Shown here: positions 7,747-60,312 of the stretch, one piece after another
Layout: each line of letters begins with the position of its first letter
Numbering within the stretch: the stretch's first letter is position 1
Assembly: GCA_904419735.1 (NCBI GenBank)
Contig: CAJFSR010000014.1
Location: forward strand, 5,955-69,954
Direction: 5' to 3'
Origin: Candidatus Neochristensenella gallicola
Lineage (GTDB): Bacteria > Bacillota > Clostridia > Christensenellales > QALW01
DNA length: 64,000 bases
Notes under the pieces: generated by a model
Databases searched by the model: none
Seen by the model: the letters and a program-made list of their open reading frames with translations, nothing else
What the model was told of the DNA's origin: nothing
Program-made: the position numbers and the translations under genes

Positions 7747-8017
7747 CCCCCCGGTTTACAAGGAACTGCACGGTCAGGATGAGTAAAATCTGCCTTTTTC
7801 TGTGCTGCTTTCATTCCATGCACGCTACCTGCCGTTCGGCTATGCTTTACCCGGCATAAATTTTATACATTCTGACTCTACAGCCCCGAACGGAGAGAAT
7901 TTCTTTATTTTTAAAGGCAAACGATAGAAGCGTACTGGATGTATACCCCTTGAGGATAACTCAGAAAAAGAAGGAATTATCCCGTTATGAGGCTTGCAGT
8001 TCCTTGTAAACTGAGGG
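7747..8017 (+). mobile_element. MITE family A, copy A1 (271 bp)
   Basis: Ends are TA|CCCCCCGGTTTACAAGGAA and TTCCTTGTAAACTGAGGG|TA. Collinear with the reference copy 34172-34438 over its whole length. No ORF. Confidence 0.85.
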
Positions 8018-10057: not shown

Positions 10058-10283
10058 CCCTCAGTTTACAAGGAAGACGGTCAGAAGGCATAAAATATGC
10101 GTTCTGCTGCGTTGCTTTGATTCCATGTACGCCCGGTACATGTCGTTTCTGCGCGCTTTACCTGGCACAAATTTTATGCCTTTTGACTCTGGAGACCTCA
10201 AACGGAGAGAATTTCTTCATTTTCAAGGCAGACGAAGAAGGCGTACTGGGAGTACGCTGATTGAGGATAACGCAGAAAATGAT
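10058..10283 (+). mobile_element. MITE family A, copy A2, right end truncated
   Basis: The left end TA|CCCTCAGTTTACAAGGAA is intact. Homology to the reference copy stops after GAGGATAACGCAGAAAATGA (about 10283) and the right TIR is absent. Confidence 0.8.
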
Positions 10284-13212: not shown

Positions 13213-13341
13213 GGCGCATAAGAAAATGCCCAGGGGGCGGCGTTCGCGGCCGCAGGCCGCGCGGCCGGGCCGAAGGCCCGGCCGGAGGCAGGTGCTTCGC
13301 GCCTGCCAAACGCCGCCCCCCTGGGCATTTTCTTATGTGCC
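13213..13341 (+). repeat. GC-rich cloverleaf palindrome, copy C2
   Basis: The outer stem GGCGCATAAGAAAATGCCCAGGGGGCGGCGTT / AACGCCGCCCCCCTGGGCATTTTCTTATGTGCC closes three hairpins: CGCGGCC-GCA-GGCCGCG, GCCGGGCC-GAA-GGCCCGGC and GGCAGGTGC-TTC-GCGCCTGCC. Lies 100 nt 3' of copA. Confidence 0.85.
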
Positions 13342-16203: not shown

Positions 16204-16471
16204 GCGTTAGTTTACAAAGAATAATGCGTTTAAAAACAGCTGGATTTGCGTTCCTGCTGAATTGCTTTGACTCATGTACGCCCGGCACATGCCGTTTCTG
16301 GGCCTTGCAGGAATGCAAATTTAATTATTTTTGGCTCTGCGGCCTCAGCCTGTGAAAATTTGTATGTTTTTAAGGCAGACGAGGGAAACGTGCAGAAACA
16401 CCGGCTGAGGATAATACAGAAAACGGGCAAAATTTCCCGGCTTCGGCGTGTTATCCGCTGTACATTGTTGC
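16204..16471 (+). mobile_element. MITE family A, diverged subfamily, copy A3 (268 bp)
   Basis: Ends are TA|GCGTTAGTTTACAAAGAATAATGCG and CGTGTTATCCGCTGTACATTGTTGC|TA. Shares the central blocks CATGTACGCCCGG, AAGGCAGACGAGGGA and GAGGATAA with the main family. The closest copy is 40527-40853. Confidence 0.7.
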
Positions 16472-16493: not shown

Positions 16494-16628
16494 ATTCTGG
16501 TCCATTAGAAAAGGTCCGGGGCGGCGTTTGGCAGGCGCTTTGCGCCTGCCTCCGGCCGGGCCTTCTGCCCGGCCGCGCGGCGTGTCCGCCGCGAACGCCG
16601 CCCCGGACCTTTTCTAATGGACCAGAAT
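16494..16628 (-). repeat. GC-rich cloverleaf palindrome, copy C3 (core inverted relative to C1/C2)
   Basis: A perfect outer stem ATTCTGGTCCATTAGAAAAGGTCCGGGGCGGCGTT / AACGCCGCCCCGGACCTTTTCTAATGGACCAGAAT closes three hairpins: GGCAGGCGC-TTT-GCGCCTGCC, CGGCCGGGC-CTTCT-GCCCGGCCG and CGCGGCG-TGTC-CGCCGCG. Confidence 0.85.
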
Positions 16629-24085: not shown

Positions 24086-25746
24086 TTAAACTATAGGTTT
24101 ATACTGGCTTTGCTCCGCAGGCTTAAGCCGTTTGAACGTATGAGCATATATTCCTAAAGAAATGGGCAGCATAATTATTTCCACGGCGAGCTGTGTCCAT
24201 ATCATGCCGTAGAGGCCAAAAAGCCGGTTCATCAGTATAAGCAGGGGGATGTTCAGCAAACCCTGGCGGCTGAAGGTAAGAAGGGCTGACTGCGCTCCCT
24301 TTCCCATGGCCTGGAGGGTATAGCTTATAAGAAAATTTACCGAAGTCAGGGGCACGGCCAGACAGGCAATGCGCAGGAAAGAGGCGCCCAAGGTGCTGGT
24401 CTGCTCTTCCCGTATGAACAGACGCAGTATTTGGGGCGCTCCCAGAGCAAAGCAGGCTACAAAGCAAGCTGACATAACAAGGGCGGTTTTCCAGGAGAAT
24501 ACGGCGACGTGGCGCATGCGCTTATAGTTTTTGGAGGCAAAAGTATACCCTAAATTGACAAGGGGATATACGCCTCCAGCGGCCTGATTCCGGCATTTTC
24601 TGCGTCGTCGTCAATAGGTGTACGTTCAGTACACCTCATTCCGCTTCCTTGAAAATGCCGAAATTAAACCTGCTGGAGGTCGAAGAGTCAGACAGCGGCC
24701 GTTTGGGTGCCCTGCAAGGCGCTTGAACGACGTGTACTGGACGTACACGGAGCGAAAAGCAACAGCGAAAAGCAACACAGCAGGACACCGAAACAGCCCT
24801 GTCCTGACCGTATATGCCCTTGTCAATTTAGGGTAGCCTACCAAAGGCATAAAACCCTGGCACAGCCCATGGATACGTTGAGCGGGAACTGATCTATGCG
24901 CTTGACTATGCCGTATGCCGCTACGGGTATATCCCCGTAATTCGAGGCCAGACTCACCATTACCATATTTGAAGCGTTGCCCAGAGCGGTAGCCAGGGCG
25001 GAAGCCAGCCCTACTGAAAAAACCGGCCGGGTGAAGGAGAAGGAAAAATATTTAGGATTCAGCGAAAGCTGGGTTCTGCCATGCAGCCGTTTGAACTGGA
25101 AGGCAAAAAAAGCGACAGAGGCCGCATTGGAAAAGGCGGTGGCTATTGCCGCGCCCGCAACGTCCATATCAAATAAGAATATGAGCACCGGATCCAGTAT
25201 TACATTCAGAATGCCCCCGAACATCATGCCTGCACTGGCCTGTTTGGCGTGTCCTTCGCTGCGCAGCAGATGGCCTAAGGTCAAGCTGGCTACAGTGGGT
25301 ATTCCGCCCAGAACAACCACCCATATAAGATAGCTTTCCGCATAACTGTAAGTATCGCTGCTTGCTCCTAAAAAATTCAAAAGGGGGTTCCGCGCAAAAA
25401 GGGTAACCAGAGAAAAAACCAGAGCCGCCGCTGCGCCGCCCCAGATGCCGAAAGCTGAGACATGCTTTATTTCCTGGTGCTTCATTGCTCCCAGCATTCG
25501 GGAGATAAGGCTGCTTGCGCCTAAACCGAACAGGTTCCCAATAGCGGTAAGCAGGTTGAACCAAGGGGAAACCAAGGAAACTGCGGCCACCATTAAAGGG
25601 TTCCCAATCTGGCCTATGAAAAAAGTGTCCGCCAGATTGTATATCATGGTAACAACCTAGCTTATAATGGTGGGAATGGCCAGAGTAGCTACGGCCCTTG
25701 GTACGCTCATGCTCTCAAACAGCTCTTTTTCGTTTTGTTTGTCCAT
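24086..25746 (-). pseudogene. MATE family efflux transporter inactivated by three lesions
   Basis: Lesion 1 is an in-frame TAG at 25657-25659 within PTIIS*VVTMIYNLADTFFIGQ, a position that my recollection of MATE N-termini would fill with Gln (unverified). Lesion 2 is a 1-nt frameshift near 24865-24875 (NVSMG then LCQGFMPLVGY in another frame). Lesion 3 is a MITE insertion at 24548-24833. Confidence 0.85.
24548..24833 (-). mobile_element. MITE family B, copy B1 (286 bp), inside the MATE gene
   Basis: TA|CCCTAAATTGACAAGGGGATATACG ... CGTATATGCCCTTGTCAATTTAGGG|TA, a 25-nt TIR matching 24/25. Carries an internal 13-bp tandem duplication GCGAAAAGCAACA x2. Strand is given relative to family A reference copy 34172-34438. 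Confidence 0.9.
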
Positions 25747-25935
25747 AATTTTAAATTTCCCTTCTTTCTGCGGAGCTGCTTAAAAAGATTATAAGCTTCT
25801 ATTGAGGATGGCGGTTTTTTATAAAAGAAGCTTAAAAGCAGGCCCTTCCGGGGCGTCCGAAAGGGCGTAATGCATTGCTGAGGATAAATTTTGCTGCAAG
25901 GCTTATTTTCATGCCGGGTTTTTAAAAGCAAGCTG

Positions 25936-26207
25936 CCCTCAGTTTACAAGGAATTACATGCCTCGTAACGGGATAATATCTTCATTTTCTGCGTTATCCT
26001 CAATCGTAGTACGTCCAGTGCGCCTTTATCGCTTGCCTGGAAAACAAAGAAATTCTCGCCGTTTGAGGCCGCAGAGTCAGAATGCATAAAATTTATGCCG
26101 GGTAAAGCGCGCTTGAACGACATGTACCGAGTGTACATGGAATCAAGACAGCGCGCCGGTACGCAATTTTATGCATTCTAACCGTGCAGCTCTCTGTAAA
26201 CTGAGGT
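25936..26207 (-). mobile_element. MITE family A, copy A4 (inverted orientation)
   Basis: CCCTCAGTTTACAAGGAA ... CTCTCTGTAAACTGAGGT|TA. The left flank is TG instead of TA. The right end abuts the stop codon of the 26207-27568 gene. Confidence 0.85.
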
Positions 26208-27568
26208 TAATTGCCGGTGAAAATATTTGACAGCCAGCTGTCAAAAGTAGGGATCCAGCCGCCTCTAGAGCCGAAGCCGTGAGGCATGTTATCCAGCTGA
26301 AGGCGTTCAACATTTACGCCCGCTTCTTCGGCAGCATCGGCATTGGCCAGGAATTGGCGGTAAAACGGGTCTCTGGTGCCGTAGCAGTAGAAAGTGGGAG
26401 GCAGATTGCCCCTCCGGAGCAGTTCCACATCGGTTGTGCCTACGCTCAGGCGCCCGTAAAAGGAATATATCATTCCGCATGCCGCAGCGTCGGCCGACAG
26501 CATGTCCAGCTGGTCAGGTATGTAATCAGAATCCAGCGCCGTGCCGTTAACTTCCCCGTCAAAATTTAAGAGCATTTCGCCGCTGAGGATTCCGCCTGCG
26601 GAAAAACCCATTACTGCTATGTCCTTTTCCTCTATGCCGTATTCCTCAGCGTGAGCGCGGACAAAGCGCACCGCCCTGGCCAGGTCGAGGGCCCCTTCCT
26701 GCTGGGTATAGGGCCGCAGACGGTAATCCACGACAAAGCTCTGGTATCCAAGGGCGCTCAGAGCCTGGGCGACCTCTATCCCTTCGGGCTGGTCGCTGCG
26801 GAACTGGAATGCCCCGCCGGGACAGATAAGCACGGCCCCTTTGATTTCTACGCCCTGCGGTACCGGAAAGCTGGTAATATAAGGCCGGAAATCCGGGTCG
26901 TCCGAATAAGCGCCATTATTCTGCGTATATTGGGTTACTGCGGGAGCGTTGTTTTCTTCCCAGAGATAAAGAGTTTGCTGCGAATGGGGCGTTACTGCTG
27001 CGCTTAATACAGTGTTGCCGCCGCTTTCTTCGGGCATGCTGTCCTCTTTAAGCAGATTAAGGCTCTGCGCCCAGGCGACAATGGCTTGGTCCTGTGTTTC
27101 TTCTAAAATTATGAGGGCGCCGCCCAGCAGCGCGCCGGGCTGAAGCTGTGAGACTGCGTTTAAAATGCCGTCCGCATTATTGCCGCTGCCGGCGGCAAAA
27201 GGAAATATTGTCTTTGCTCCAAAATCATTTTGAGTTAAAAACTCCGCTATCTCTTCGGGCAGAATATTATTTTCTGCTTCAAAGCCCAGCAGGATAAATT
27301 CATACATGCCATAATCCTTTTGGGGATTTTCAGAAATAGGCAGTACTTGGGCGTTTAATGTTTCTCCCAGCAAAGAGGCGGCCCGGCTTATGGGGCTGTT
27401 CTCCTGGGAAGAAACATATGCAACGAGGATATTGCTCTGCTGGGGGGATGTGAAAATATTTCCCTGGCTGGGTGCGGCACTTTGCTGGGCTGGGCTTTGG
27501 GGGCTGCTGCAAGCGGCCATACAAAAAATCATACTGGATATAACTATCATTACCGCTGTTCTTTTCAT
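26207..27568 (-). CDS. lipoprotein with an N-terminal flavodoxin-like region and a C-terminal alpha/beta-hydrolase (esterase/lipase) domain
   Basis: Lipobox FCMAAC and nucleophile elbow GFSAGG within VMGFSAGGILSG. Also HAEEYGIEEKDIAVMG, typical of hydrolase fold-3 esterases. Confidence 0.7.
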   Translation of the reverse strand: MKRTAVMIVISSMIFCMAACSSPQSPAQQSAAPSQGNIFTSPQQSNILVAYVSSQENSPISRAASLLGETLNAQVLPISENPQKDYGMYEFILLGFEAENNILPEEIAEFLTQNDFGAKTIFPFAAGSGNNADGILNAVSQLQPGALLGGALIILEETQDQAIVAWAQSLNLLKEDSMPEESGGNTVLSAAVTPHSQQTLYLWEENNAPAVTQYTQNNGAYSDDPDFRPYITSFPVPQGVEIKGAVLICPGGAFQFRSDQPEGIEVAQALSALGYQSFVVDYRLRPYTQQEGALDLARAVRFVRAHAEEYGIEEKDIAVMGFSAGGILSGEMLLNFDGEVNGTALDSDYIPDQLDMLSADAAACGMIYSFYGRLSVGTTDVELLRRGNLPPTFYCYGTRDPFYRQFLANADAAEEAGVNVERLQLDNMPHGFGSRGGWIPTFDSWLSNIFTGN

Positions 27569-27749
27569 AAGGCCTCTCTTTTTCTATTTTAATGTGCCGG
27601 CGGCAGGCGCTGGACGCAGGGGGTAGCGCGTCCAGGCCTGCCGCCCGAAAATACATTTTGCTTATAAATGCCGGAGCACGCAGCGCCGTATTTGCCGGCT
27701 TAAAGGTTTAACGCCGGGGCTGCTGCGTGCGGCCGGGATAGCCTGCCGT

Positions 27750-28421
27750 TTACAGATTCAGGCTGTCCAGCCAGGCCTGCACATCCTCCTGGCTTACGCG
27801 GGAGGAGAAACGGTGGCCCTCCAGCCAATTACCTGTGCCGGCCATATCCTCAAGCAGCTCGCCGCTCTGGCCCAGGCCCGAACTTGCCGAGGTGCAGAAG
27901 GGTATTACGGTTTTCCCGGTAAAGTCGTTGTTTTGGATAAATGTGTCCACTGGCCAGGCCGCTATGCCCCACCATATGGGGTAGCCGATAAATATGGTGT
28001 CGTATTCGCTCCAGTTTTCTACTGTATTAGCCACCAGCTCTATATTTCGGGCGTCGGGATTGTCATGCTCATAAACTACTCTGCTGTCTTGATTGCTGTA
28101 ATTAAGGTCTTCGTCGGTATAGGGGTCGGCGGGCACCAGTTCAAATAAATCGCCGCCGGTAAGCTGGGCTATATAATCAGCCGCTTCCTGGGTATTGCCT
28201 GTCGCTGAAAAGTATACTACCAGCGTCCGGCCTCCGCCTTGCGCGGGAGTTTGGGCTTCTTCGCTGTTCTGCGCCGAGGGGGCGGAAGAGACTGCGGGAT
28301 TTTCCGAAGAAGAGGGAATATAAGCCGAAGGGGATGAGGAGGCCTGAGGGGTCTGGCTGCTGCAGGATGCGAGTCCTATGGCCAATATCAGGCCAAGTAC
28401 GAGGGAAGTTAATTTTTTCAT
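27750..28421 (-). CDS. flavodoxin-like lipoprotein
   Basis: The start at 28421 (MKKLTSLVLGLILAIGLASCSS) has AGGAG upstream. A Ser/Pro/Ala linker precedes a flavodoxin-type core (LVVYFSATGNTQEAADYIA ... PFCTSASSG). Confidence 0.75.
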   Translation of the reverse strand: MKKLTSLVLGLILAIGLASCSSQTPQASSSPSAYIPSSSENPAVSSAPSAQNSEEAQTPAQGGGRTLVVYFSATGNTQEAADYIAQLTGGDLFELVPADPYTDEDLNYSNQDSRVVYEHDNPDARNIELVANTVENWSEYDTIFIGYPIWWGIAAWPVDTFIQNNDFTGKTVIPFCTSASSGLGQSGELLEDMAGTGNWLEGHRFSSRVSQEDVQAWLDSLNL

Positions 28422-28437
28422 TTTATTCTTTCTCCTT

Positions 28438-29607
28438 TCATTTAAAACACTCATTGAAGATTTGAAGTATTTCTTCATGAGTCATTTTCATATAACTGCC
28501 CGCAGAAATGCCGCATGAATAGGCAATTTCTTTTAACGGCGCTTCATCGCTGAGGCCCAGCTCCTTTAAAGTGGAGGGCAGGCCGATTTCCTTGATGAAA
28601 GCCTCCAGGGCGTCTATGCCTGCCAGAGCCAGCGCCTCGTCTGTTTTCCCGTTTCTGGGGATATTCCAGACATTTTGCGCAAACCGGACGAATTTAGGCA
28701 GGCCATATTTGTAAATATGACGGTAATAGGTTGGGTGCAGCACTGCCAGGCCGCAGCCGTGATTGCAGTTTGTATAAGCGCCCAGCTGGTGCTCCATATT
28801 GTGACATTCAAAATCACATTTTTTGCCCATTTTTATAAGACGGTTCTCCGCCATGGTGGAATCCCACATTAAATTGGAGCGGGCTGTATAATCAGTTGGG
28901 TTGATAATGGCGGCTCTCAGATTCTTAATGACGCTTTTCATGAGCGCCTCCATTATATCGTCCGAAACATTGTCCTGGTCGGGCTGGCTGAAATAAGTTT
29001 CCATGATATGGCTTAAAATATCAAAGCTGCCCGATACCATCTGTTTTTTGGGTACGCTGTATGTGTAAGTCGGGTCCATAAGGGCAAATGCGGGATTAAG
29101 CTTAGGATAGTCCCTGCCGGTTTTTATTTTTTTTGCTTCATTGGTTATGACTGCGCCTCCGTTGCATTCGCTGCCAGTACCCGCCGCGGTTACTATCACG
29201 CCTAACGGGAGGGGCTCAATTTCAATTACGCCCTGCCTTGCCCAGAAATCATCCCATATGTCTCCTTCATATCTGGCGGCAAGGGAGACAGCCTTAGAGC
29301 AGTCCATCACGGAGCCGCCGCCTACGGCCAGAATCATGTCTGCCTTTTCGCTTTTGGCCAGGCGGGCGCCCTCAAGCACTTTGGCGTAAGCAGGGTTGGA
29401 CATGATGCCTGAAAATTCTATAATTCTTTTGCACGCATTATTTAAAATGCCGGTTACTTCTTCGTATACGCCGTTTTGTTTTATAGAGCCGCCGCCGTAG
29501 GCAAGCATTACTGTTTGGGCTCTTTTTGTCAGGCAGGCAAGATATTCTTTGACGCAGCCCTGCCCGAAATATACTTTAGTTGCGTTTTGGAAAATAAAAT
29601 TGTTCAT
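28438..29607 (-). CDS. iron-containing alcohol dehydrogenase (butanol dehydrogenase/YqhD-like)
   Basis: 389 aa with GGGSVMDCSKA and the metal-binding His cluster CHNMEHQLGAYTNCNHGCGLA. Confidence 0.88.
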   Translation of the reverse strand: MNNFIFQNATKVYFGQGCVKEYLACLTKRAQTVMLAYGGGSIKQNGVYEEVTGILNNACKRIIEFSGIMSNPAYAKVLEGARLAKSEKADMILAVGGGSVMDCSKAVSLAARYEGDIWDDFWARQGVIEIEPLPLGVIVTAAGTGSECNGGAVITNEAKKIKTGRDYPKLNPAFALMDPTYTYSVPKKQMVSGSFDILSHIMETYFSQPDQDNVSDDIMEALMKSVIKNLRAAIINPTDYTARSNLMWDSTMAENRLIKMGKKCDFECHNMEHQLGAYTNCNHGCGLAVLHPTYYRHIYKYGLPKFVRFAQNVWNIPRNGKTDEALALAGIDALEAFIKEIGLPSTLKELGLSDEAPLKEIAYSCGISAGSYMKMTHEEILQIFNECFK

Positions 29608-29746
29608 AAAAACATCTCCTTAAATTGTATTTCGGCTGCTGTTTTCCGGCTATAGCGTGCGGGAAAAATATGAGGCCGCTGCGCCGCCGTCAAAGGGACA
29701 GAATATAATAGGATGCCGGGGAGGCGATTTTCTGGTCTGCCAGGGC

Positions 29747-29828
29747 GGGATCATTTGCAATATTGCGGCATCCCTGATTTTTTTCGGTTTGCCAGGTTGG
29801 GATTATTTGCAATATTGCGGCATCCCTG
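29747..29828. promoter_or_regulatory. two 30-bp direct repeats, each containing the perfect palindrome GCAATATTGC
   Basis: GGGATCATTTGCAATATTGCGGCATCCCTG (29747-29776) and GGGATTATTTGCAATATTGCGGCATCCCTG (29799-29828), 52 bp apart. Each is bracketed by GGGAT/ATCCC. Located 140-220 nt upstream of the ADH start. Confidence 0.4.
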
Positions 29829-29865
29829 CCTTCTGCTGCTTTGCCAGGTCAAAGGGTGCCCTCAT

Positions 29866-30945
29866 TTACATCTGGGCCTCCCAAAAGGCGACTGCTTCGT
29901 CCAGCCAGCCCTGGGCTATGGTGCCGGTGCCCAGGCCGAATCCGTGGCCCAGGCCGGGGTAATGGCGGAACTGGGTGGGGATGCCCAGGCTGCTCATTGC
30001 GTTGAGCCTGTTTTGCATAGTGCGCCAGTTGGCTATTCCGTCCCTTTCGCCTACGCAGGCAAAGGTAGGCGGATCGTTGGGTGTATAATCGGTATGCCCG
30101 GTATACTGCATGATTACGGCGCCCGGCCTGGGAAGCTGGTCCCCGTTAAAGGCTGCAGGCCCGTAGGAGCCAAGCCAGGCAGCCATTCTTCCGCCTGCCG
30201 AACCGCCCCATAGCGAATAGCAGTCCGTATCCACTCCAAGCTCTTCTGCATTTTTGAAGATAAAGCTTATGGCACGGGCCAAATCCTCGCAGGCGGTTTG
30301 CGCTCCGGGACGGTATATCAGCGCAAAAGCATTATAGCCCCGCTTGGATAATTCCAGCGCGTGGGGGAAGCTGTCCTGCATGGCGCCGACATAGGCGAAT
30401 CCGCCGCCTGCATTGCATATGGCGAATTTTTCGCCCTGATTGCCTCTGAAGAAAAATAATCCGGTATCTTCTTTAGCGGGATCCTCCGCTTTTTCCTGGG
30501 GAGTATAAATATCATAAAATATGGTTTCGCCCGCCAGAACGCTGTCCTTAAAATAATTTGCTATTTCCACAGTTTTGTTTGCGTCAATATTGCTGTACCA
30601 TGTCAAACGCAGTCCGCCCAGCGTTTCGCCGCTGTAGTAAGCGCTGTTTACGGGGAAAATCAGCCTGCCGTATCCTTCAAACGCCGGATAGTTTATAACT
30701 TCGTCTATTCTTGTTTCAGCTGTAAAAGCTTGATTGAGATTCTGATGGGACTGCATGTTATCCGTTCCTTGGGTCTCCTGTGCGGAAGCTTTGGGCGGCT
30801 GCGCCCCATGGGAGGGGAGCGCCGTGCCGTTTAGGGAAGCCTGAATGCTGCATGCGGTCAGACAAAGCGTTAAGCAGAGTACCGTAAGCGTGAGCCTGAT
30901 TCTTTTCAATTTGTTACCGCCCGCCTTTCCTTTGTTTCTGCTCAT
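29866..30945 (-). CDS. lipoprotein alpha/beta-hydrolase
   Basis: The start is at 30945 (MSRNKGK...LCLTACS lipobox), and the nucleophile elbow is GGSAGG in LWGGSAGGRMAA. The 456-aa track ORF is a 5' extension overlapping the LysR gene. Confidence 0.7.
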   Translation of the reverse strand: MSRNKGKAGGNKLKRIRLTLTVLCLTLCLTACSIQASLNGTALPSHGAQPPKASAQETQGTDNMQSHQNLNQAFTAETRIDEVINYPAFEGYGRLIFPVNSAYYSGETLGGLRLTWYSNIDANKTVEIANYFKDSVLAGETIFYDIYTPQEKAEDPAKEDTGLFFFRGNQGEKFAICNAGGGFAYVGAMQDSFPHALELSKRGYNAFALIYRPGAQTACEDLARAISFIFKNAEELGVDTDCYSLWGGSAGGRMAAWLGSYGPAAFNGDQLPRPGAVIMQYTGHTDYTPNDPPTFACVGERDGIANWRTMQNRLNAMSSLGIPTQFRHYPGLGHGFGLGTGTIAQGWLDEAVAFWEAQM

Positions 30946-31072
30946 ATTATAAAAAAATAGAGACTTCAGCGGAAGTCTCCATTTGTTAATCAGCATATAC
31001 TTAAAGGTTAACAGCGCTTTCTGCGGCGTCAGAATAAAGAATTTATGCGCTTTTGCGGCAGTTAAAATAAAA

Positions 31073-31966
31073 TCAAGCGCTTTTGGTTTTTTCAACGGCC
31101 TGTAAAAACTTTTGGACGGTGGGAGAGGGGTGAGGCGAATGCAGCAGGCCGAAGGGAATAGAATATCCCCAGTCAACCGGCATGATTTTGAGCAGAGGAT
31201 GCACATATCTCCAGTTTTCCACGGCCATGAGCACACAGTTATTGTTTTCGCATTGGTTAAAGGCAGCTACGTCATAAAAATCAAAATCTACAATATGAAT
31301 CTGCGGATGGTTCTTCCAGATATCGTCCCTCAGCAAATCTACATAATGGCTCCAATCCCGGCGCATGAGCATCAGGTTTTCGCCGTAAAGGTCCTGAAAA
31401 GTTAATTTTTCCTTCTGCGCCAGCTTATGATGAACAGATACTGCGCAGCAGATAGGCTCCCTTGAAAGCTCAAGGCCGGCGCATTGGCGCAGCTTAAGCA
31501 TGGTTTCGTCAAATATGCCTGCTACTACGTCGATATTCTGTCCCATATTGCCTAAAATTTCTCTGGCGTTTTCGGGGGTGTTGTCAAAGGGAATAAGCTG
31601 AAATTTTATATTGGGGCAGTATTCCTGAAGCTTGGGCCATAAATCTACCAGCACCTGAGCGGGAGTCATGGGGGAGGTGCCTATGCGGATAATGTCGGTG
31701 CTGTCCTGCATGGCGTTTTTGGCCCGCGTTACTGAATCCTTGCAGTATTGGATTATGTATCTGGCATCCTGATAAAGGGATTTTCCGGCCTTAGTGAGCA
31801 GCAGGCCCCTGTGGGTGCGTGTAAAAAGCTGTAAATCCAGGCTTTCCTCTAAAAGATTGATTTGCTTGATAACTGCGGGAGGAGAAATATAAAGCTTTTC
31901 GGCGGCCTTGTTGAAACTGCCCGATTCGGCCACATATAAAAAAGTTTCAAGCTGCGGATTATACAT
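31073..31966 (-). CDS. LysR family transcriptional regulator
   Basis: N-terminal wHTH (FLYVAESGSFNKAAEKLYISPPAVIKQINLLEESL) plus a LysR substrate-binding domain. Confidence 0.88.
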   Translation of the reverse strand: MYNPQLETFLYVAESGSFNKAAEKLYISPPAVIKQINLLEESLDLQLFTRTHRGLLLTKAGKSLYQDARYIIQYCKDSVTRAKNAMQDSTDIIRIGTSPMTPAQVLVDLWPKLQEYCPNIKFQLIPFDNTPENAREILGNMGQNIDVVAGIFDETMLKLRQCAGLELSREPICCAVSVHHKLAQKEKLTFQDLYGENLMLMRRDWSHYVDLLRDDIWKNHPQIHIVDFDFYDVAAFNQCENNNCVLMAVENWRYVHPLLKIMPVDWGYSIPFGLLHSPHPSPTVQKFLQAVEKTKSA

Positions 31967-32287
31967 TTAGAACAGCCGTCCTTTCTTTGATGCAATAAGG
32001 AGGAGGCTGAATTGGGCCGCTTGCGCAATCTGCATATATTCCCAGACGAGCATTTGAAAAATCTGTTTTATGCCGTGCAGACAGTTTTATCAAATATCAG
32101 CTTAAAGCCCGGTTTTTCCAAAGCTAAGATATAGTCCCTCCACAAATGCGAAAATATCAAATATAACAGATATATTTTATTCGATTTTTGGCAGTATGTC
32201 AATATTTGCAGAGCACTCTTGAAATAGCTTAGTTTTTATTCCTTAAAAATGAAAAGCGGCGCATATTTTTATGCGCCGCTTACCCTA

Positions 32288-32539
32288 CCCTCAGTTTACA
32301 AGGAAGACGGCCAGAAGGTATAAAATATGCGTCCTGCTGCGTTGCTTTGACTCAATGTACGCCCGGTACCTGTCGGCACAAATTTTATGCCTTCTGACTC
32401 TGAGAGCTCAAACGGAGAGAAATTTCTTCAATTTTAAGGCCAATGATGGAAGCGTACTGGGAGTAAGCCCATTGAGGATAACGTGGAAAATGAAGAAATT
32501 ATCTCGTTATGAGGCGTATAATTCCTTGCAAATTACAGT
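32288..32539 (+). mobile_element. MITE family A, copy A5 (252 bp, decayed right TIR, internal deletion)
   Basis: TA|CCCTCAGTTTACAAGGAA ... TTCCTTGCAAATTACAGT|TA, with about 17 bp missing after CGGTACCTGTCG relative to the reference copy. Confidence 0.8.
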
Positions 32540-32550
32540 TAACGCAGTCT

Positions 32551-32721
32551 TTATAATTTTTCCTCCGCCGTATCCGTTTGAGTTTTGGTCTGCTGCTTTT
32601 TCTTAAGATTCCTGATTTCGCGGTTTATTCTCTGGCATACCCCCGCGTTATTGCGGTCTTTTCGCGTATTTAATATGTGCAGCCTGTTTTCTAAAAGAGC
32701 GATTTTGGTTGAAATATCCAT
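32551..32721 (-). CDS. candidate 56-aa basic small protein (MDISTKIALLENRLHILNTRKDRNNAGVCQRINREIRNLKKKQQTKTQTDTAEEKL)
   Basis: Below the ORF-track cutoff. Uninterrupted frame with a weak RBS (GAAAGGAT). No homology evidence available. Confidence 0.3.
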   Translation of the reverse strand: MDISTKIALLENRLHILNTRKDRNNAGVCQRINREIRNLKKKQQTKTQTDTAEEKL

Positions 32722-32903
32722 ACTTTTATCCTTTCTTCCGAATAATTTTTTTTCAATTTTAACTAAAAATCATACCGTCTTCAAAACAAGACGGCGCCCG
32801 TTAAGAGCTTTTTCCTGCTGTGGAATACATAATATATTAATTTGCGGCAGCTCTCCTTCCCTGGCCTAACCAGCCTCTAAGTGTTTGTTTTTCTCTGTGC
32901 TTT

Positions 32904-32939
32904 ATCCGAATACGGATTATATTATATCCGATATCGGAT
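32904..32939. promoter_or_regulatory. pair of palindromic operator-like sites ATCCG-N4-CGGAT
   Basis: ATCCGAATACGGAT (32904-32917) and the perfect palindrome ATCCGATATCGGAT (32926-32939), about 40-70 nt upstream of the putative marR promoter. Confidence 0.45.
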
Positions 32940-32975
32940 AAAAGCCAAGAGGCCGAATAAAAAATTAAAAAATGC

Positions 32976-33004
32976 TTGACAATGCGGCGGCAGTTATATA
33001 TATT
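32976..33004 (+). promoter_or_regulatory. candidate sigma-70 type promoter of the marR-ABC operon
   Basis: TTGACA (32976-32981), a 17-nt spacer, then TATATT (32999-33004). Confidence 0.5.
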
Positions 33005-33055
33005 GTCAAACGTCCGAATTAATATTGTATGATTTCGGATGATGGAGGGCTGTAT

Positions 33056-33514
33056 ATGAATAAAGGAGCTTCGCCCCCTGAAACTCTTGCCGGCTTTAGG
33101 GAGGCTACGATGGAATTGGATAATGTCTATTCCGCGTTTCCCAAGGCATGCGGCTTGTCAGACGCTGAATACTGGTCTCTGCTTATGGTTTACGAAGGCG
33201 CTGCGACCCAGAGCCAAATCAGCGGCCAGCTGTTTCTCAGCCGCCAGACATTAAATTCAGCTTTTAAGCAGTTAAGGAAAAAGGGACTGATTAGGTTAGA
33301 GCCGTTTGAAGAAAACCAGCGTTCAAAGCGGGCGTTCTTAACAGAGGCGGGCAAGCTGTTTGTGGAAAAGTATGTTATTCAAATGCACCGGGTAGAGGAA
33401 GAGGCATGGCGGCGGCTGGATGAAGAAGAGCGTATAAAGCTCACATCCCTTACGCGGAAATTCAGCGGCCTGGTCCGCCGGGAATTAAAAGCTTCAAAAT
33501 TTAATATTCATTAA
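33056..33514 (+). CDS. MarR family transcriptional regulator
   Basis: The start at 33056 has GGAGGG upstream. Shows a winged-helix block (TQSQISGQLFLSRQTLNSAFKQLRKKGLI). Confidence 0.85.
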   Translation: MNKGASPPETLAGFREATMELDNVYSAFPKACGLSDAEYWSLLMVYEGAATQSQISGQLFLSRQTLNSAFKQLRKKGLIRLEPFEENQRSKRAFLTEAGKLFVEKYVIQMHRVEEEAWRRLDEEERIKLTSLTRKFSGLVRRELKASKFNIH

Positions 33515-33517
33515 TGC

Positions 33518-33601
33518 TCATCGGAGGTTTGCGGCCGTAGCCGCAGCGACCGGAGAAGATGTCGAGTGCGCTCGGTTATTTAAAAGTAACCGGGCGTTTT
33601 T
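33518..33601 (+). promoter_or_regulatory. leader/attenuator element E1 (structured region, SD-ATG mini-ORF, intrinsic terminator)
   Basis: Starts with TCATCGGAGG and has the hairpin TGCGGC-CGTA-GCCGCA. GGAGAAGATG opens a 20-codon ORF (33559-33621). The terminator CGCTCGGTTA-N8-TAACCGGGCG plus T5 lies at 33569-33601. Homologous to E2. Confidence 0.5.
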
Positions 33602-33617
33602 ATGTTTGGAGGCAATT

Positions 33618-33860
33618 ATGAAAAAAATTATAAACGGAATTACATATGATACCTCGGCGGCGCAGCAGTTATCTGCCTTTTATTTTTCATTGCATGGCAT
33701 TGCAATAGAGGAAACTGCCTATTTAATGCCGGAGGGGCACTATTTCATTGTTCGGAGCATTAACGGGCAGGAAACGGTATTATTAACTGCATCGGCTGAA
33801 GATATACCCCGCTGGAAAAAATATCGGAGCCAGTTCCCTGAACAGCTCTGGCTTGGATAA
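33618..33860 (+). CDS. hypothetical 80-aa protein
   Basis: ATG at 33618 with GGAGG 5 nt upstream. No recognisable motif. Flanked by the two E elements. Confidence 0.4.
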   Translation: MKKIINGITYDTSAAQQLSAFYFSLHGIAIEETAYLMPEGHYFIVRSINGQETVLLTASAEDIPRWKKYRSQFPEQLWLG

Positions 33861-33953
33861 GGAGGAAAAAGCCGTGCAGAGCATGATTTGTATTCCTGCG
33901 CCGGTATGGGGGCGTTCTCCTCCAAATAACGGCAAATTAATATTAAATAACGG

Positions 33954-34058
33954 TCATCGGAGGACTGTCTGCCGCAATGGCGGGCTGAACGGATATTCAG
34001 CCGCAGTCGAGGAAGATGCCGGGTACGCCCGGATTATTACGGTAATCCGGGCATTTTT
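33954..34058 (+). promoter_or_regulatory. leader/attenuator element E2
   Basis: Starts with TCATCGGAGG and has a larger structured insert. GAGGAAGATG opens a 9-codon ORF (34016-34045). The terminator GCCCGGATTA-N6-TAATCCGGGC plus T5 lies at 34027-34058, directly upstream of the ABC exporter start. Confidence 0.5.
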
Positions 34059-34093
34059 CTGCTGAATTATATAGGAAAGGATTAAATGATTCA

Positions 34094-36095
34094 ATGAAGC
34101 TTATATTGAGGTTTATAAAGCCCCACTGGAAATTGTGCGCGGCTACCATTTTGCTTTTGATTGTGGACGTACCCTCAGTTTACAAGGAAGACGGTCAGAA
34201 GGCATAAAATATGCGTCCTGCTGCGTTGCTTTCGCTCCAAGTACGCCCGGTACATGTCGTTTCTGCGCCTTGCATGACACAAATTTTATGCCTTCTGACT
34301 TTGAGACCTCAAACGGAGAGAATTTCTTCATTTTCAAGGCAGACGAAGAAAGCGTACCGGGGAGTACGCTGATTGAGGATAACGCGGAAAATGAAGAAAT
34401 TATCACTTTGAGGCGTGTAGTTCCTTGTAAACTGAGGGTAACGGGAACCTTAATAATTTCTACGTTTGCCGCGGAAATGCTCAATCAGGGGACATCGGGA
34501 GCGTCCTTTGAAATGCTGCTTAATACCGGGCTGAAAATGGCGGCTGCATCAATTATCTCCAGCGTATGCGCTATTTTGGGCGGATATGCCTGCGCCGCTC
34601 TTTCAGCGCGGGTAGGCAAGGATATGCGGCTGGCTATTTATAATAAATCCTTAAAACTCGCCATATATGATTTCCGCCAGTTTGGAACGGCTTCTATTAC
34701 CACCAGAACGGTTTCGGATATTACCACCATTCAGTTTGCATTGACCAGCTTTATACAGATGGTGCTGCCTGTTCCGGTAATTTTCGTTGTGGCGCTTCTT
34801 TTGGCCTTCGGCCTGGATGTGGAAATGGGCGCTATACTGTTAATTGCAGTAGCGGTTGTTTTAGTTATCGCCCTGTTTATTATGAAAAGCGCTTCGCCTT
34901 TGTTTAGAAAATTACAAAAGCTGCTGGACAGGATGACCACTATTTTACTGGAAAACATAACCGGAGTCCGCGTGGTCCGCGCCTTCAATAATGAGCGCAG
35001 GGAGGAAGCGCGCATGGGAGAGGCTTTTTCCAATTACGCCCAGACTTCCATAAAGGCCAACCGGCGGTTCGCCAATCTGGACGGACTTTCCTTCCTGTTC
35101 ATAAATCTTTTTATAGTTATTGTATATTGGCTCAGCGGCGGGAGAATCAGCTCCGGGCATCTTCAGATTGGCGATATAACCGCCGTTATCGGTTATGCAA
35201 TGATGGTGCTGTTCTTTTTGATGATGGCCCAGATGGTTGTTCTGACCATGCCCCGCGCTTTGGAATGCTGCGGCCGCGTGCAGGCGGTTCTGGAGCATAC
35301 GCCCGAAATCCAGGACATGGTTCCGGAAAAAATGCAGGCTGCGTGCGAAGAGAAGAAGGACGAGGTGCTGGCATTTAAAGATGTTTCCTTTAGGTTTGCA
35401 GACGCGGAGGAGGATACTTTAAGCCATTTGAATTTCGTATGCAGACGAGGGGAGACCACGGCGATAATAGGCGGCACAGGCAGCGGCAAGTCCACCGTAG
35501 CTTCCCTGATCCTGCGCTTTCATGATGTTACCGGGGTGCGGTATGCTTAAACGGCACGGACGTCCGGCAGCTTACCCAGCATTATCTTAGGGATCACTTA
35601 GCCTATGTCCAGCAGAAGGCGTGGCTGTTTTCCGGCAGCATTGCGGACAATCTGCGGTACGGCAATAAAGACGCCGGGGAAGAAGAATTAATGCATGCAG
35701 CAGACGTAGCGCAGGCGGGGGATTTTATACGCGCTTTGCCTGAGGGGCTGGATTCCTATGTGGCGCAGGGCGGCACTAATTTTTCGGGCGGGCAGAAGCA
35801 GAGGCTGTCCATTGCCCGCGCGCTGGTGAAAAAGCCTGAGCTCTACATATTTGACGACAGCTTTTCCGCCCTGGATTTTAAAACTGATGCGGCTCTGCGC
35901 AAGGCGCTGGCGAAGGAAACCAAGGATTCCGCAGTGTTGATTATTGCCCAGAGGGTGAGCACCATCCAGCATGCAAATCAAATAGTAGTGCTTAACCAGG
36001 GGCAAATGGCCGGCATCGGCACCCATGAGGAGCTGCTGCAAAATTGTCCGGTTTATCGGGAAATCTATGAATCGCAGACCAAGGAGGCACATTAA
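34094..36095 (+). pseudogene. ABC exporter (fused TMD-NBD, MdlB/MsbA type) disrupted by a MITE insertion and a frameshift
   Basis: The N-terminus MKLILRFIKPHWKLCAATILLLIVDV (34094-34171) is separated from the rest of the TMD by the element at 34172-34438. The Walker A region GGTGSGKST is followed by a -1 frameshift in a G-run (35533-35536). The NBD continues in another frame (LSGGQKQRLSIARAL, IFDDSFSALD). Confidence 0.85.
34172..34438 (+). mobile_element. MITE family A, reference copy A6 (267 bp) inside the ABC exporter gene
   Basis: Has a perfect 20-nt inverted terminus including the flanking TA (TACCCTCAGTTTACAAGGAA / TTCCTTGTAAACTGAGGGTA). TA lies on both sides (34170-71 and 34439-40). 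Removing the element plus one TA restores the reading frame. Confidence 0.92.
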
Positions 36096-36097
36096 GC

Positions 36098-37196
36098 ATG
36101 AAGCCCGAAATGAAAAAACAGAGAGGCCGGAGCACCGTATCCAGGCTGTTTGGCCAGCTTAAGGGCCAGCGTGTCCGGCTCAGCGTTGTCGCTCTTTCCA
36201 TTATTGTTTATGTGGGCCTGAGCATATATACTCCCATGTTCAGCGCGACTGTAATAGACCATCTTTGGCAGAGCATTCAGGCGGCCTGGAAAGAGGGAAT
36301 ACCATTTAGCATTACCTGGACTAATATGGGCGCGGAATTGACCCAATTAAGCGTGCAGTATCTGCTTACCTGGATTTTCTATTATCTGCAATCCTACCTT
36401 ATGGCAAACGTAGCCGAATGCCTTAATTTGGAGCTGCGCAGCCAGATTGCCAGGAAATTGAACCGGCTGCCCTTAAGCTTCTTTGACAGGAATAAGGCCG
36501 GTGAAATTTTAAGCCGTGTTACCAGCGACCTGGATAAAATTGCCGAAGTGCTTCAGACGGGTTTGCTCAAGCTTATAGTGGCTGTGGGGACTATTATAGG
36601 TTCTTTGGCGGTAATGTTCTATTACAGCGCGGCGCTGACCTGCATTTTCCTGGGCTTTATGCTGGTAAGTATGATAATTACACAGATTGTAGCCAAAAAG
36701 AATCTGCGCTGTGCGGCTGAGCGTCAGGAAACTATAGGAGAACTGACGGGTATAGTGGAGGAATATTATAACGGACGTAACGTGATTAAAGCATACAATC
36801 ATGAGGAGGAAAGCATCCGGCAGGTTGCCGCCGCTACGGAAAAAAACCGCATTGCCAACCAAAAAGCGGACTTTTTAACCAACTGCGTCAATCCGCTTAT
36901 CAGGCTGCTTACCCGCCTGGCTAATGTTGTTATTGCAATTATTGCAGGCAGGGCCATGCTTAACGGCACAATGACGGTAGGCGTTGTGCAGGCGTTTTTC
37001 CAATATGTCAATCAGACGGCCGAGCCTCTGACCGAGGCCTCCTTTATGATTAATTCGCTTCAGTCGGCGCTGGCCTCGGCTAAACGTACTTTTGAATTAT
37101 TAGACGAAGAGGAGGAGCGACCCGATCCATCTCATCCTGCCGTATTGGAGCGCGCTCAGGGCAATATCGCTTTTAGTCATGTAAGCTTCGGGTACC
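36098..37196 (+). pseudogene. second ABC exporter, 3'-truncated (TMD only, NBD lost)
   Basis: A typical type I exporter TMD runs up to NIAFSHVSFGY. After about 37196 the frame runs antisense through the FGE-like gene, so the 591-aa track ORF is chimeric. No Walker A, signature or Walker B follows. Confidence 0.8.
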
Positions 37197-40526: not shown

Positions 40527-40853
40527 TTGTCAGCGAGCAGGGTATAATGCGGTTTAAAACAGCTTAATTTTCCTTCCTGCTGTGCTGTTTTTTCTCAATA
40601 CACGCCAGGTACAGCCGTGTATGTACCTTGCAGGGACGCAAATTCAACCGTTTTTGACTCTGCGGCCCCGGCCCATGGAAAATTGCCCGCTTCCAAGGCA
40701 GACGAGGGAGGCCCAGAGGCGCGCCCGCTGATCGGGGATAACGCCGAAAAGCATACCGGCCTGGGATAGCGCATAAAAGTACAACAACCGGGGTCAGCGC
40801 AGAAAACGGGCGAAATTTCGGGCTGCGGCGCATTATTCCCTGTACGCTTAACT
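40527..40853 (+). mobile_element. MITE family A, diverged subfamily, copy A7 (about 327 bp, ends approximate)
   Basis: TA|TTGTCAGCGAGCAGGGTATAATGCGGTTTAAAACAGC ... CAGAAAACGGGCGAAATTTCGGGCTGCGGCGCATTATTCCCTGTACGC. Collinear with 16204-16471 and shares AAGGCAGACGAGGGA and GGGGATAACGCCGAAAAG with the main family. Confidence 0.6.
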
Positions 40854-54898: not shown

Positions 54899-55171
54899 GC
54901 CTAAATTGACAAGGGGATACACGCCTCCAACGGCCTGATTCCGGCATTTTCTGCGTCGTCGTCAATGGGCGTGCGTTCAGTACGCCTCATTCCGCTTCCT
55001 TAAAAATGCCGGAATCAAACCTGCTGGAGGTCAAAGAGTCAGACAGCGGCCGTTTGGGTGCCCTGCAAGGCGCTTGGACAACGTGTGCTGGACGTACGCG
55101 GAGCGAAAAGCAGCACGGCAGGACACTCAAACAGCCCTGTCCTGACCGTATATGCCCTTGTTAATTCAGGG
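54899..55171 (-). mobile_element. MITE family B, copy B2 (273 bp)
   Basis: Collinear with B1 but lacks its 13-bp duplication. The left end is decayed (GCCTAAATTGACAAGGGGATACACG). The right end is TATATGCCCTTGTTAATTCAGGG|TA. Confidence 0.8.
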
Positions 55172-60154: not shown

Positions 60155-60312
60155 ATTTTTATTTTCAGTGAGGCCGGCTTAAGGGCCGCTCCCCGCGGCG
60201 TTGGGCAGGGCTGGAAGCCCTGCCCTGGCCGGGCAACAGCCCGGCTGCGCGGCCGAAGGCCGCGAACGCCGCGGGGAGCGGCCCTTAAGCCGGTCTCCCT
60301 GAAAATAAAAAT
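60155..60312 (-). repeat. GC-rich cloverleaf palindrome, copy C4 (core inverted, longest outer stem)
   Basis: The outer stem ATTTTTATTTTCAGTGAGGCCGGCTTAAGGGCCGCTCCCCGCGGCGTT / AACGCCGCGGGGAGCGGCCCTTAAGCCGGTCTCCCTGAAAATAAAAAT closes three hairpins: GGGCAGGGC-TGGAA-GCCCTGCCC, GCCGGGC-AACA-GCCCGGC and CGCGGCC-GAA-GGCCGCG. Confidence 0.85.

What the first reader, a model, noticed from the sequence alone, without database searches (positions are those of the whole stretch)
34172..34438. MITE insertion in an ABC exporter gene with exact in-silico restoration of the reading frame
The sequence upstream of the element (34094-34171) encodes MKLILRFIKPHWKLCAATILLLIVDV. Downstream, the frame continues TGTLIISTFAAEMLNQGTSGASFEMLLNTG... 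The element has an 18-nt perfect TIR, or 20 nt counting TA, and TA on each side. Deleting 34172-34440 (267 bp plus one TA, 269 nt) joins GAC GTA | ACG GGA in frame. The result is a normal N-terminus for a type I ABC exporter transmembrane domain. Duplication of a TA target is the signature of IS630/Tc1-mariner transposition and of Correia-like MITEs. This demonstrates transposition rather than mere repetition.
Basis: partly seen in the sequence, partly recalled or inferred. Interest (0 to 1): 0.7.

Follow-up and report, generated by a model that had tools for sequence, protein, structure and literature searches.

The report
Small mobile element splits transporter gene
A 267-bp non-coding mobile DNA element has inserted into, and split, an ABC exporter gene of an uncultured human-gut bacterium; a closely related genome still carries the intact gene, so this is a clearly documented but fairly ordinary transposon insertion from an apparently undescribed, very abundant element family.

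Summary
Element 34172-34438 is 267 nt, has a perfect 18-nt terminal inverted repeat (TIR), and has TA on both sides.

Removing 269 nt rebuilds the ABC exporter N-terminus. The predicted empty site, GACGTAACGGGA, exists in a related human-gut metagenome contig (L001) whose intact protein is 97% identical. An independent assembly (L002) has the same insertion, so it is not an assembly artefact.

The element belongs to a dense family:
- 9 copies in this 64-kb window, about 3.8% of the DNA.
- 186 copies or fragments in about 1 Mb of TIR-selected metagenome contigs.
- TA flanks both sides at 56 of 74 distinct-flank copies.
- Five occupied/empty site pairs each show a single TA at the empty site.
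- A second copy in the window splits a MatE efflux gene.

Copies fold as a 20-bp terminal stem plus two long hairpins. Pairing is kept between subfamilies by compensatory changes. There is no conserved ORF and no Rfam match.

[quoted passage not shown] That points to IS630/Tc1-mariner-type mobilisation, but no cognate transposase or autonomous copy was found.

Verdict: a new member of a known kind, of modest interest.

The parts
34094..34171 (+). 5' fragment of the ABC exporter gene (26 codons, MKLILRFIKPHWKLCAATILLLIVDV). Its last two bases, 34170-34171, are the left TA of the target duplication.
   Evidence: It matches residues 1-26 of the intact orthologue P0001.
34172..34189 (+). Left terminal inverted repeat, CCCTCAGTTTACAAGGAA.
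34192..34300 (+). Internal hairpin A (about 110 nt, apex GTACGCCCGGTAC).
   Evidence: Fold. Pairing is kept across 70 copies (helices 4-9).
34307..34413 (+). Internal hairpin B (about 107 nt, apex GTACCGGGGAGTAC), with a conserved internal loop AAGGCAGACGA / ATTGAGGATAACGC.
   Evidence: Fold; helices 10-12; alignment.
34421..34438 (-). Right terminal inverted repeat, the exact reverse complement of the left one.
34439..34440 (+). Right copy of the duplicated TA target.
   Evidence: The empty site in L001 has a single TA.
34441..36095 (+). Remainder of the ABC exporter gene (transmembrane domain plus nucleotide-binding domain). It has a 1-nt homopolymer deletion near 35537 in this assembly.
   Evidence: Pfam domains ABC_membrane and ABC_tran are recorded for orthologues.
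24548..24833 (-). Family copy of subfamily 2 (TIR CCCTAAATTGACAAGGG, 286 nt) flanked by TA. It splits a MatE efflux gene into fragments 24086-24517 and 24838-25647.
   Evidence: The empty site in L001 reads GGCAAAATTATAGCCTACC, and L001 has an intact 451-aa MatE.
7747..8017 (+). Family copy, intergenic (between recR and a downstream gene), flanked by TA.
10058..10282 (+). Family copy, 92% identical to the focal copy, with its 3' end truncated.
16204..16471 (+). Divergent family copy (about 67% identity) with degenerate ends, flanked by TA.
25936..26207 (-). Family copy, intergenic. It is also present at the orthologous site in L001 (85% identity) and in L002 (100%).
32283..32539 (+). Family copy with variant ends (an extra CCCTA on the left; the right end reads ...CAAATTACAGT), flanked by TA. 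It is absent from both L001 and L002.
40566..40750 (+). Partial, divergent family remnant.
54899..55171 (-). Family copy of subfamily 2, intergenic.

Best explanation
Positions 34172-34438 are one copy of a non-autonomous DNA transposon (a MITE of about 270 bp).

**Shown**
- It inserted at a TA dinucleotide inside codons 26/27 of a type I ABC exporter gene and duplicated the TA. The insertion splits the first transmembrane helix and shifts the frame by 269 nt.
- The element has 18-20-nt terminal inverted repeats and no coding capacity.
- Its interior forms two long palindromic hairpins.
- It belongs to a lineage-restricted, very abundant family in an uncultured human-gut Bacillota bacterium. 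Several members interrupt genes and are present or absent between close relatives.

**Inferred**
- Copies are mobilised in trans by a DDE transposase of the IS630/Tc1-mariner type, which binds the terminal repeats and integrates at TA by a 2-bp staggered cut. That enzyme was not found.
- The hairpins are kept because the transposing source copies need them, as DNA or as single strands. Alternatively, palindrome arms correct each other.
- The interrupted exporter is non-functional in this lineage.
For: **Anatomy and in-silico excision:**

**Real empty site:** it lies in an orthologue encoding a protein 97% identical to the restored one. The same insertion is present in an independent assembly.

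**Ancestral state:** all 80 orthologous ABC loci from other genomes lack the element, so the uninterrupted gene is ancestral.

**Family size:**
- 9 copies in the window.
- 186 copies or fragments in about 1 Mb of metagenome contigs.
- 94 full-length copies at 55 distinct sites.

**TA target:** TA is on the left at 66/74 distinct-flank copies, on the right at 64/74, and on both sides at 56/74. Five occupied/empty pairs each have a single TA at the empty site.

**Other gene hits:** in-silico excision rebuilds long ORFs at other sites, and the window's MatE gene is also split.

**Not coding, not a known RNA:** no conserved ORF and no Rfam or tRNA hit.

**Structure:**
- Fold z-score is -9.7 for the plus strand and -11.5 for the minus strand.
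- 90% of cells are paired across 70 copies, against 36-47% when the partners are slid.
- 47 pairs change on both sides, against 31 in shuffles (0 of 500 shuffles reach the observed value).

**Literature:** bacterial MITEs typically have TIRs, terminal TA and target-site duplications. RUP is linked to IS630-Spn1 by TIR similarity and TA targets (PMC2229807).
Against: - No autonomous copy or IS630/Tc1-type transposase was found in 2.3 Mb of fetched sequence. That total includes about 1 Mb selected for carrying the exact TIR.
- The TIR matched nothing informative in plasmid or phage records, and it appears in no paper.
- Compensatory conservation of the internal hairpins is not required by a simple TIR-binding cut-and-paste model.
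- Elements lying between co-directional genes share the genes' orientation 15 times against 5 (p = 0.04). This hints at some selection after insertion.
- At about 270 bp the element is longer than most described bacterial MITEs, which are under 200 bp (PMC2229807).
Confidence: 0.85

Rival explanations
1. It is a MITE, but it is mobilised by a transposase outside the IS630/Tc1-mariner group. Candidates are an IS30-like enzyme (2-3-bp duplications) or an undescribed enzyme that recognises the hairpin-rich single strand.
For: No IS630-type gene was found. The internal hairpins are conserved by compensatory change, which a TIR-only model does not need. Deletion derivatives that keep only the outer ~80 nt of each side are still flanked by TA at different sites.
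Against: Strict TA duplication at five empty sites and at most copies is, to my knowledge, the hallmark of IS630/Tc1-mariner among bacterial IS families. Only a small fraction of the host genome was sampled.
Confidence: 0.15
2. The repeats are primarily a host-useful structured element. They could be an RNA or DNA module affecting transcript stability, termination or nucleoid protein binding, like REP/BIME or ERIC, and they happen to be mobile. The ABC insertion would then be an accidental by-product.
For: The Y-shaped fold is conserved with compensatory changes. Internal-loop sequences in hairpin B are conserved across subfamilies. There is a weak orientation bias with transcription. Density is very high.
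Against: - G.U versus A.C mismatches give no clear strand asymmetry, and both strands fold equally well.
- There is no Rfam match.
- Promoter and terminator matches are not enriched.
- Copies disrupt genes.
- Most of the covariation separates two subfamilies, so it reflects few independent events.
Confidence: 0.1
3. The empty allele in L001 arose by precise excision, or by recombinational replacement, of an ancestral insertion rather than representing the pre-insertion state.
For: Allele replacement is plausible in gut bacteria. At copy 32283-32539 the flank is locally divergent from both relatives, so there presence or absence may reflect an imported allele.
Against: For the ABC site, every one of 80 orthologues in other genomes is uninterrupted. 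The flanks are 97.5% identical to L001. The uninterrupted gene is therefore ancestral and the insertion derived.
Confidence: 0.04
4. The insertion is an assembly artefact, with a repeat wrongly placed inside the gene by a metagenome assembler.
For: The window comes from a metagenome-assembled genome. Repeats of this family often end contigs. The window shows homopolymer-length differences from L002.
Against: An independent assembly from another sample (L002, ERZ24671715) has the element at exactly the same TA with the same flanks.
Confidence: 0.01

Closest known systems
RUP (repeat unit of pneumococcus), a MITE attributed to IS630-Spn1
   Same: Non-coding, bounded by terminal inverted repeats, inserts at TA with duplication, many copies per genome, Firmicutes host, and can inactivate genes (PMC2229807).
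   Different: RUP is 107 bp, and its repeats match a known IS630-family element. This element is about 270 bp, has two internal hairpins, and no partner IS was found. I did not align the two sequences.
Correia / CREE elements of Neisseria
   Same: An abundant MITE with terminal TA and a TA duplication, whose transcript folds into a stable stem-loop. As far as I know, no cognate transposase has been identified.
   Different: Correia elements are 100-155 bp with 26-bp repeats and an IHF site, and they are restricted to Neisseria. This element occurs in a different phylum, is about twice as long, and forms a Y-shaped two-hairpin interior. The resemblance is one of kind, not of family.
Stowaway-type MITEs / Tc1-mariner non-autonomous elements of eukaryotes
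   Same: TA target duplication, short terminal repeats, and high copy number from a few source copies that give subfamilies.
   Different: These are eukaryotic and mobilised by mariner-like transposases. No homology was tested.
ERIC, YPAL and Bacillus cereus bcr repeats (structured bacterial interspersed repeats)
   Same: Whole-length imperfect palindromes whose pairing is conserved. From my own knowledge, bcr repeats are reported with compensatory changes.
   Different: These have different sequences, sizes and hosts. YPAL makes variable 3-26-bp duplications (PMC2229807), whereas this family always duplicates TA.

Membership tests
MITE (non-autonomous DNA transposon) | Small size with no coding capacity | tested here: met
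   Copies are 258-299 nt. No frame is open in more than 6 of 70 copies.
MITE (non-autonomous DNA transposon) | Terminal inverted repeats | tested here: met
   The focal copy has a perfect 18-nt repeat. The terminal helix is paired in 93.5% of cells across 70 copies, and the two ends change together between subfamilies.
MITE (non-autonomous DNA transposon) | Target-site duplication shown by occupied versus empty sites | tested here: met
   Five site pairs each have a single TA at the empty site and TA on both sides of the element.
MITE (non-autonomous DNA transposon) | Many dispersed copies | tested here: met
   There are 9 copies in 64 kb, 186 hits in about 1 Mb, and 55 distinct sites among the full-length copies.
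IS630/Tc1-mariner-mobilised element | Strict TA target with a 2-bp duplication | tested here: met
   A 3-bp duplication is excluded at site 24548, where the flanks read ATA and GTA.
IS630/Tc1-mariner-mobilised element | An autonomous IS with matching terminal repeats | tested here: inconclusive
   No repeat pair 400-5000 bp apart encloses an ORF in the roughly 1.1 Mb of host-lineage sequence scanned. All solo ends are truncated MITEs.
IS630/Tc1-mariner-mobilised element | A DDE (DD34-35E) transposase of this family in the host | tested here: inconclusive
   A motif search and phmmer with a mariner sequence recalled from memory found none in 2.3 Mb. The complete genome was not searched.
Correia/CREE family | Sequence homology to the Neisseria consensus, 26-bp repeats and an IHF site | not tested
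Host, length and architecture differ.
Any curated RNA family (Rfam 15) | A match at gathering score | tested here: not met
   No match in the window at gathering threshold. Only chance-level microRNA hits appeared at E up to 10.
Type I ABC exporter (the interrupted gene) | ABC_membrane transmembrane domain fused to an ABC_tran ATPase domain | tested here: met
   Precomputed Pfam domains PF00664 and PF00005 are recorded for P0001 and 119 relatives, and the gene table lists them.

The most novel reading that the evidence does not exclude
The family may be more than a passive IS630-type MITE. It could be a structured mobile module whose two internal hairpins and conserved internal loop are under selection. 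One version is that it moves through a single-stranded hairpin intermediate using an unrecognised enzyme, which would explain why no IS630 partner is seen. The other is that its transcript has a host-level role; the co-orientation with genes hints at this.
Probability: 0.12. Interest if true: 0.6.

Novelty: new member of a known kind. Interest (0 to 1): 0.35.

Why it matters
- It is a clean natural example of gene inactivation by a MITE in an uncultured human-gut bacterium, with occupied and empty alleles both present in public metagenomes.
- The family makes up about 4% of this window and differs in copy number between close relatives. It is therefore a likely driver of strain-level variation: efflux and exporter genes are hit twice in this window alone.
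- It is also a cause of contig breaks in gut metagenome assemblies.
- The missing transposase and the conserved hairpins are small open questions for people who study mobile DNA. Otherwise the phenomenon is textbook.

Tried and rejected
- **Rfam** at gathering and permissive thresholds, and **tRNA/tmRNA** search: nothing.
- **Coding potential:** no conserved ORF, so this is not an RPE-like in-frame insert.
- **RNA-strand test** by G.U versus A.C counts: no clear asymmetry.
- **Genome-collection scan with the ABC protein:** 80 loci from many Clostridia and others, none carrying the element.
- **Autonomous-copy and transposase hunt, all negative:**
  - distant TIR pairs;
  - solo ends;
  - IS630 motif regex;
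  - recurrent contig ends;
  - phmmer with Mos1 (its only weak hits, E about 1e-3, were 160-180-aa ORFs just upstream of the ABC genes, probably MarR-type HTH regulators rather than transposases);
  - paralogue-context analysis (uninformative);
  - ORFs flanked by inverted repeats (host genes only).
- **BLAST** of the element and of its end against plasmid and phage records: nothing useful.
- **Literature search** for the repeat sequence: no paper. A search for MITE plus Christensenellaceae returned only house-dust-mite papers.
- **Promoter/terminator scan:** not above shuffles.
- **L134 9365-10036** looked like a longer element, but it is a MITE with an unrelated 400-bp insert.

Full report
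**1. The observation**

Reading 33900-34700 confirms each stated coordinate:
- The ABC gene starts at ATG 34094.
- TA lies at 34170-34171.
- CCCTCAGTTTACAAGGAA lies at 34172-34189, and its exact reverse complement at 34421-34438.
- TA lies at 34439-34440.

The element is 267 nt. Deleting it with one TA (269 nt) joins GAC GTA | ACG GGA. The translation then reads MKLILRFIKPHWKLCAATILLLIVDV|TGTLIISTFAAEMLNQG.... With up to three mismatches the 18-mer occurs 7 times in the window against 0.03 expected. The repeat is therefore real and part of a family.

**2. The decisive test: a real empty site**

I searched with the restored protein, also repairing a 1-nt homopolymer gap near 35537.
- It found an intact 577-aa orthologue, P0001, at 97% identity.
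- It also found a 527-aa product, P0002, at 98% identity, which starts downstream of the insertion point.

P0001's contig (L001, human-gut metagenome) reads GATTGTGGACGTAACGGGAACC.

P0002's contig (L002, another sample) is 97.8-99.0% identical to window 24248-45720. It carries the element at the same TA, so the insertion is not an assembly artefact.

Eighty orthologous ABC loci from other genomes are all uninterrupted and lack the element. The uninterrupted gene is therefore the ancestral state.

**3. The family**

*Copies in the window.* BLAST of the element against the window finds nine copies or remnants at 62-92% identity. That is about 3.8% of the 64 kb.

In that ~1 Mb, a profile built from the window copies finds 186 copies or fragments, 87 of them full length. 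All have the same order: TIR, hairpin A, hairpin B, TIR.

*Host range.* The 1.25 Mb of loci from other Clostridia has none, so the family is lineage-restricted. The host is an uncultured Bacillota bacterium from a metagenome-assembled genome. Some 90%-identity cluster-mates of its AdhE are labelled Christensenellaceae.

*TA target.* Among 74 copies with distinct flanks, TA is on the left at 66, on the right at 64, and on both sides at 56. The flanks are A+T-rich with no further consensus.

*Occupied/empty pairs.* Besides the ABC site there are four more, each with a single TA at the empty site:
- 24548-24833 against L001.
- 32283-32539 against L001 and L002.
- L157:2511-2786 against L097 (flanks 98.8% identical).
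- L151:1888-2164 against L111.

At site 24548 the bases next to the TA differ (ATA and GTA). This excludes a 3-bp duplication.

*Gene hits are not unique to the ABC gene.*
- Copy 24548-24833 splits a MatE efflux gene whose 451-aa orthologue is intact in L001. In-silico excision rejoins ...GFMPLVG|Y(T/N)FASKNY... in frame.
- In-silico excision also rebuilds long ORFs spanning several metagenome sites, 797, 665, 612 and 379 aa among them.

*Copy number differs between relatives.* In the stretch shared with L001 (window 24486-37194), the window has four copies, L002 three and L001 one.

*A caveat on recency.* Copy 32283-32539 has degenerate ends, and its flank is locally divergent from both relatives. 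Its presence or absence may reflect an imported allele rather than a very recent jump.

**4. Anatomy and structure**

*Fold.* Either strand folds into a 20-bp terminal stem (TA plus TIR) closing two long hairpins. The energies are far below shuffles, with z = -9.7 for the plus strand and -11.5 for the minus strand.

*Conservation.* On an alignment of 70 copies, this structure is paired in 90% of cells, against 36-47% when partners are slid. Forty-seven pairs change on both sides, against 31 in shuffles, and 0 of 500 shuffles reach the observed value.

*Source of the covariation.* Most double changes separate the main subfamily from a second one of about 12 copies. That subfamily has TIR CCCTAAATTGACAAGGG and hairpin stems such as GGCTGTTTGAGTG/CACTCAAACGGCC in place of ATAAAATATGC/GCACAAATTTTAT. 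They therefore represent few independent events. They still show that the transposing source copies kept all three helices.

*RNA-level evidence.* G.U versus A.C counts give no clear strand preference. Both strands fold equally well. There is no conserved ORF and no Rfam family. I therefore see no evidence for a specific RNA, only for palindromy at the DNA level.

*Deletion derivatives.* Derivatives exist in both subfamilies, still flanked by TA. The commonest, about 166 bp, fuses the left arm of hairpin A to the right arm of hairpin B at the two similar apical GTAC palindromes.

*Orientation.* Between co-directional genes, elements point the same way as the genes at 15 sites and the opposite way at 5 (p = 0.04). 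This is only suggestive.

**5. Mechanism**

*Shown:* insertion at TA with a 2-bp duplication, by a non-coding, TIR-bounded, multi-copy element.

*Inferred:* mobilisation in trans by a DDE transposase of the IS630/Tc1-mariner type. To my knowledge this is the bacterial IS family characterised by TA duplication. RUP in pneumococcus is attributed to IS630-Spn1 on just such grounds (PMC2229807).

*Not shown:* the enzyme. The following found no candidate:
- No repeat pairs 400-5000 bp apart enclose an ORF.
- All solo ends are truncated MITEs.
- No YSPxxNPxE-type motif appears, and phmmer with a recalled Mos1 sequence gives no credible transposase hit, in 2.3 Mb.
- The only recurrent contig end is the MITE itself.
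- ORFs flanked by inverted repeats are host genes.
- The element end has no informative match in plasmid or phage records, and the TIR appears in no paper.

Only a small part of the host genome was accessible, so this absence is inconclusive.

**6. State of the interrupted gene**

The insertion splits transmembrane helix 1 and shifts the frame. One frame happens to be open through this copy, but that frame is not conserved in the family.

In the same lineage (window and L002), the partner ABC gene and a convergent FGE-sulfatase gene are truncated by a deletion. Its junction reads AGCTTCGGGTA|CCCATTCTCC at 37194.

The window has a G4 run where L001 and L002 have G5 at 35537. L002 has its own 1-nt difference in the partner gene at the position matching window 36847. 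These may be real decay of an already dead operon, or homopolymer errors of the assemblies. I cannot tell which. It is also unknown whether the MITE or the deletion came first.

**7. Comparison with what is known, and verdict**

The element meets every defining feature of a MITE that I could test. It meets the TA-duplication criterion of IS630/Tc1-mariner-mobilised elements, but not yet the criterion of a matching autonomous partner.

It works like RUP, Correia elements and Stowaway MITEs. It is not demonstrably a member of any named family. It is also longer and more elaborately structured than most described bacterial MITEs, which are under 200 bp (PMC2229807).

I found no prior description of this family. 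I rate it a new member of a known kind. The finding is correct and nicely provable, but the phenomenon is textbook. The abundance, the hairpin conservation and the missing transposase give it modest specialist interest.

Noticed in passing
window 13223-13338, 16508-16615, 60155-60312; also L134 9600-9740: A second, unrelated repeat family. It has a GC-rich core of about 90 nt bounded by CGGCGTT...AACGCCG, with three short conserved hairpins. In every copy the core sits inside a longer, copy-specific perfect stem followed by a T-rich run. It looks as if a small element had inserted into the loop of intrinsic-terminator hairpins. One copy is nested inside a MITE.
   Followed up: partly
window 24086-25647 (minus strand): A MatE efflux gene is split by MITE copy 24548-24833. 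The intact 451-aa gene and the empty TA site are present in L001. Two transporter genes in this window are therefore hit by the same family.
   Followed up: yes
window 37194: A deletion junction (AGCTTCGGGTA|CCCATTCTCC) truncates the second ABC exporter gene after about 365 codons, and also truncates the 3' end of a convergent FGE-sulfatase gene. It is shared with L002. The junction falls at a TA, but no link to the MITE could be tested.
   Followed up: partly
window 35537 and 24865: The window has one-base homopolymer deletions relative to L001 and L002: G4 versus G5 in the ABC gene, and C3 versus C4 in MatE. L002 has its own single-base difference in the second ABC gene at the position matching window 36847. 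This is either real pseudogene decay or assembly error.
   Followed up: partly
window 34255-34305 versus L002 9740-9795: The copy at the same insertion site differs between the two assemblies by a block in the upper 3' arm of hairpin A (GCGCCTTGCATGACAC versus GCGCGCTTTACCTGGCAC). Both variants are common alleles elsewhere in the family. This suggests gene conversion between copies, or chimeric assembly of the repeat.
   Followed up: no
L094 12388-12557, L138 9613-9778, L086 3703-3868, L085 606-773, L160 4251-4372: Short derivatives of the MITE (122-170 bp), still flanked by TA. Several fuse the left arm of hairpin A to the right arm of hairpin B at the two similar apical GTAC palindromes, giving a single long hairpin.
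   Followed up: partly
L003-L082: The ABC exporter pair is found at 57-89% protein identity in very different taxa (Lachnospiraceae, Oscillospiraceae, Atopobiaceae, Bifidobacterium, a Treponemataceae bin). Several of these identities look too high for such distant taxa, which would suggest horizontal spread of the operon.
   Followed up: no
window 29728-29831: Two tandem 52-nt units, 85% identical (TTTTCTGGTCTGCCAGGGCGGGATCATTTGCAATATTGCGGCATCCCTGATT). They lie where L001 has an extra short-chain dehydrogenase gene that the window lacks.
   Followed up: no
window 32283-32590: MITE copy with an extra CCCTA at the left end and a diverged right end. The sequence just to its right is only about 65% identical to both L001 and L002, although the wider region is 98-99% identical to L002. 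This looks like a locally imported allele.
   Followed up: partly
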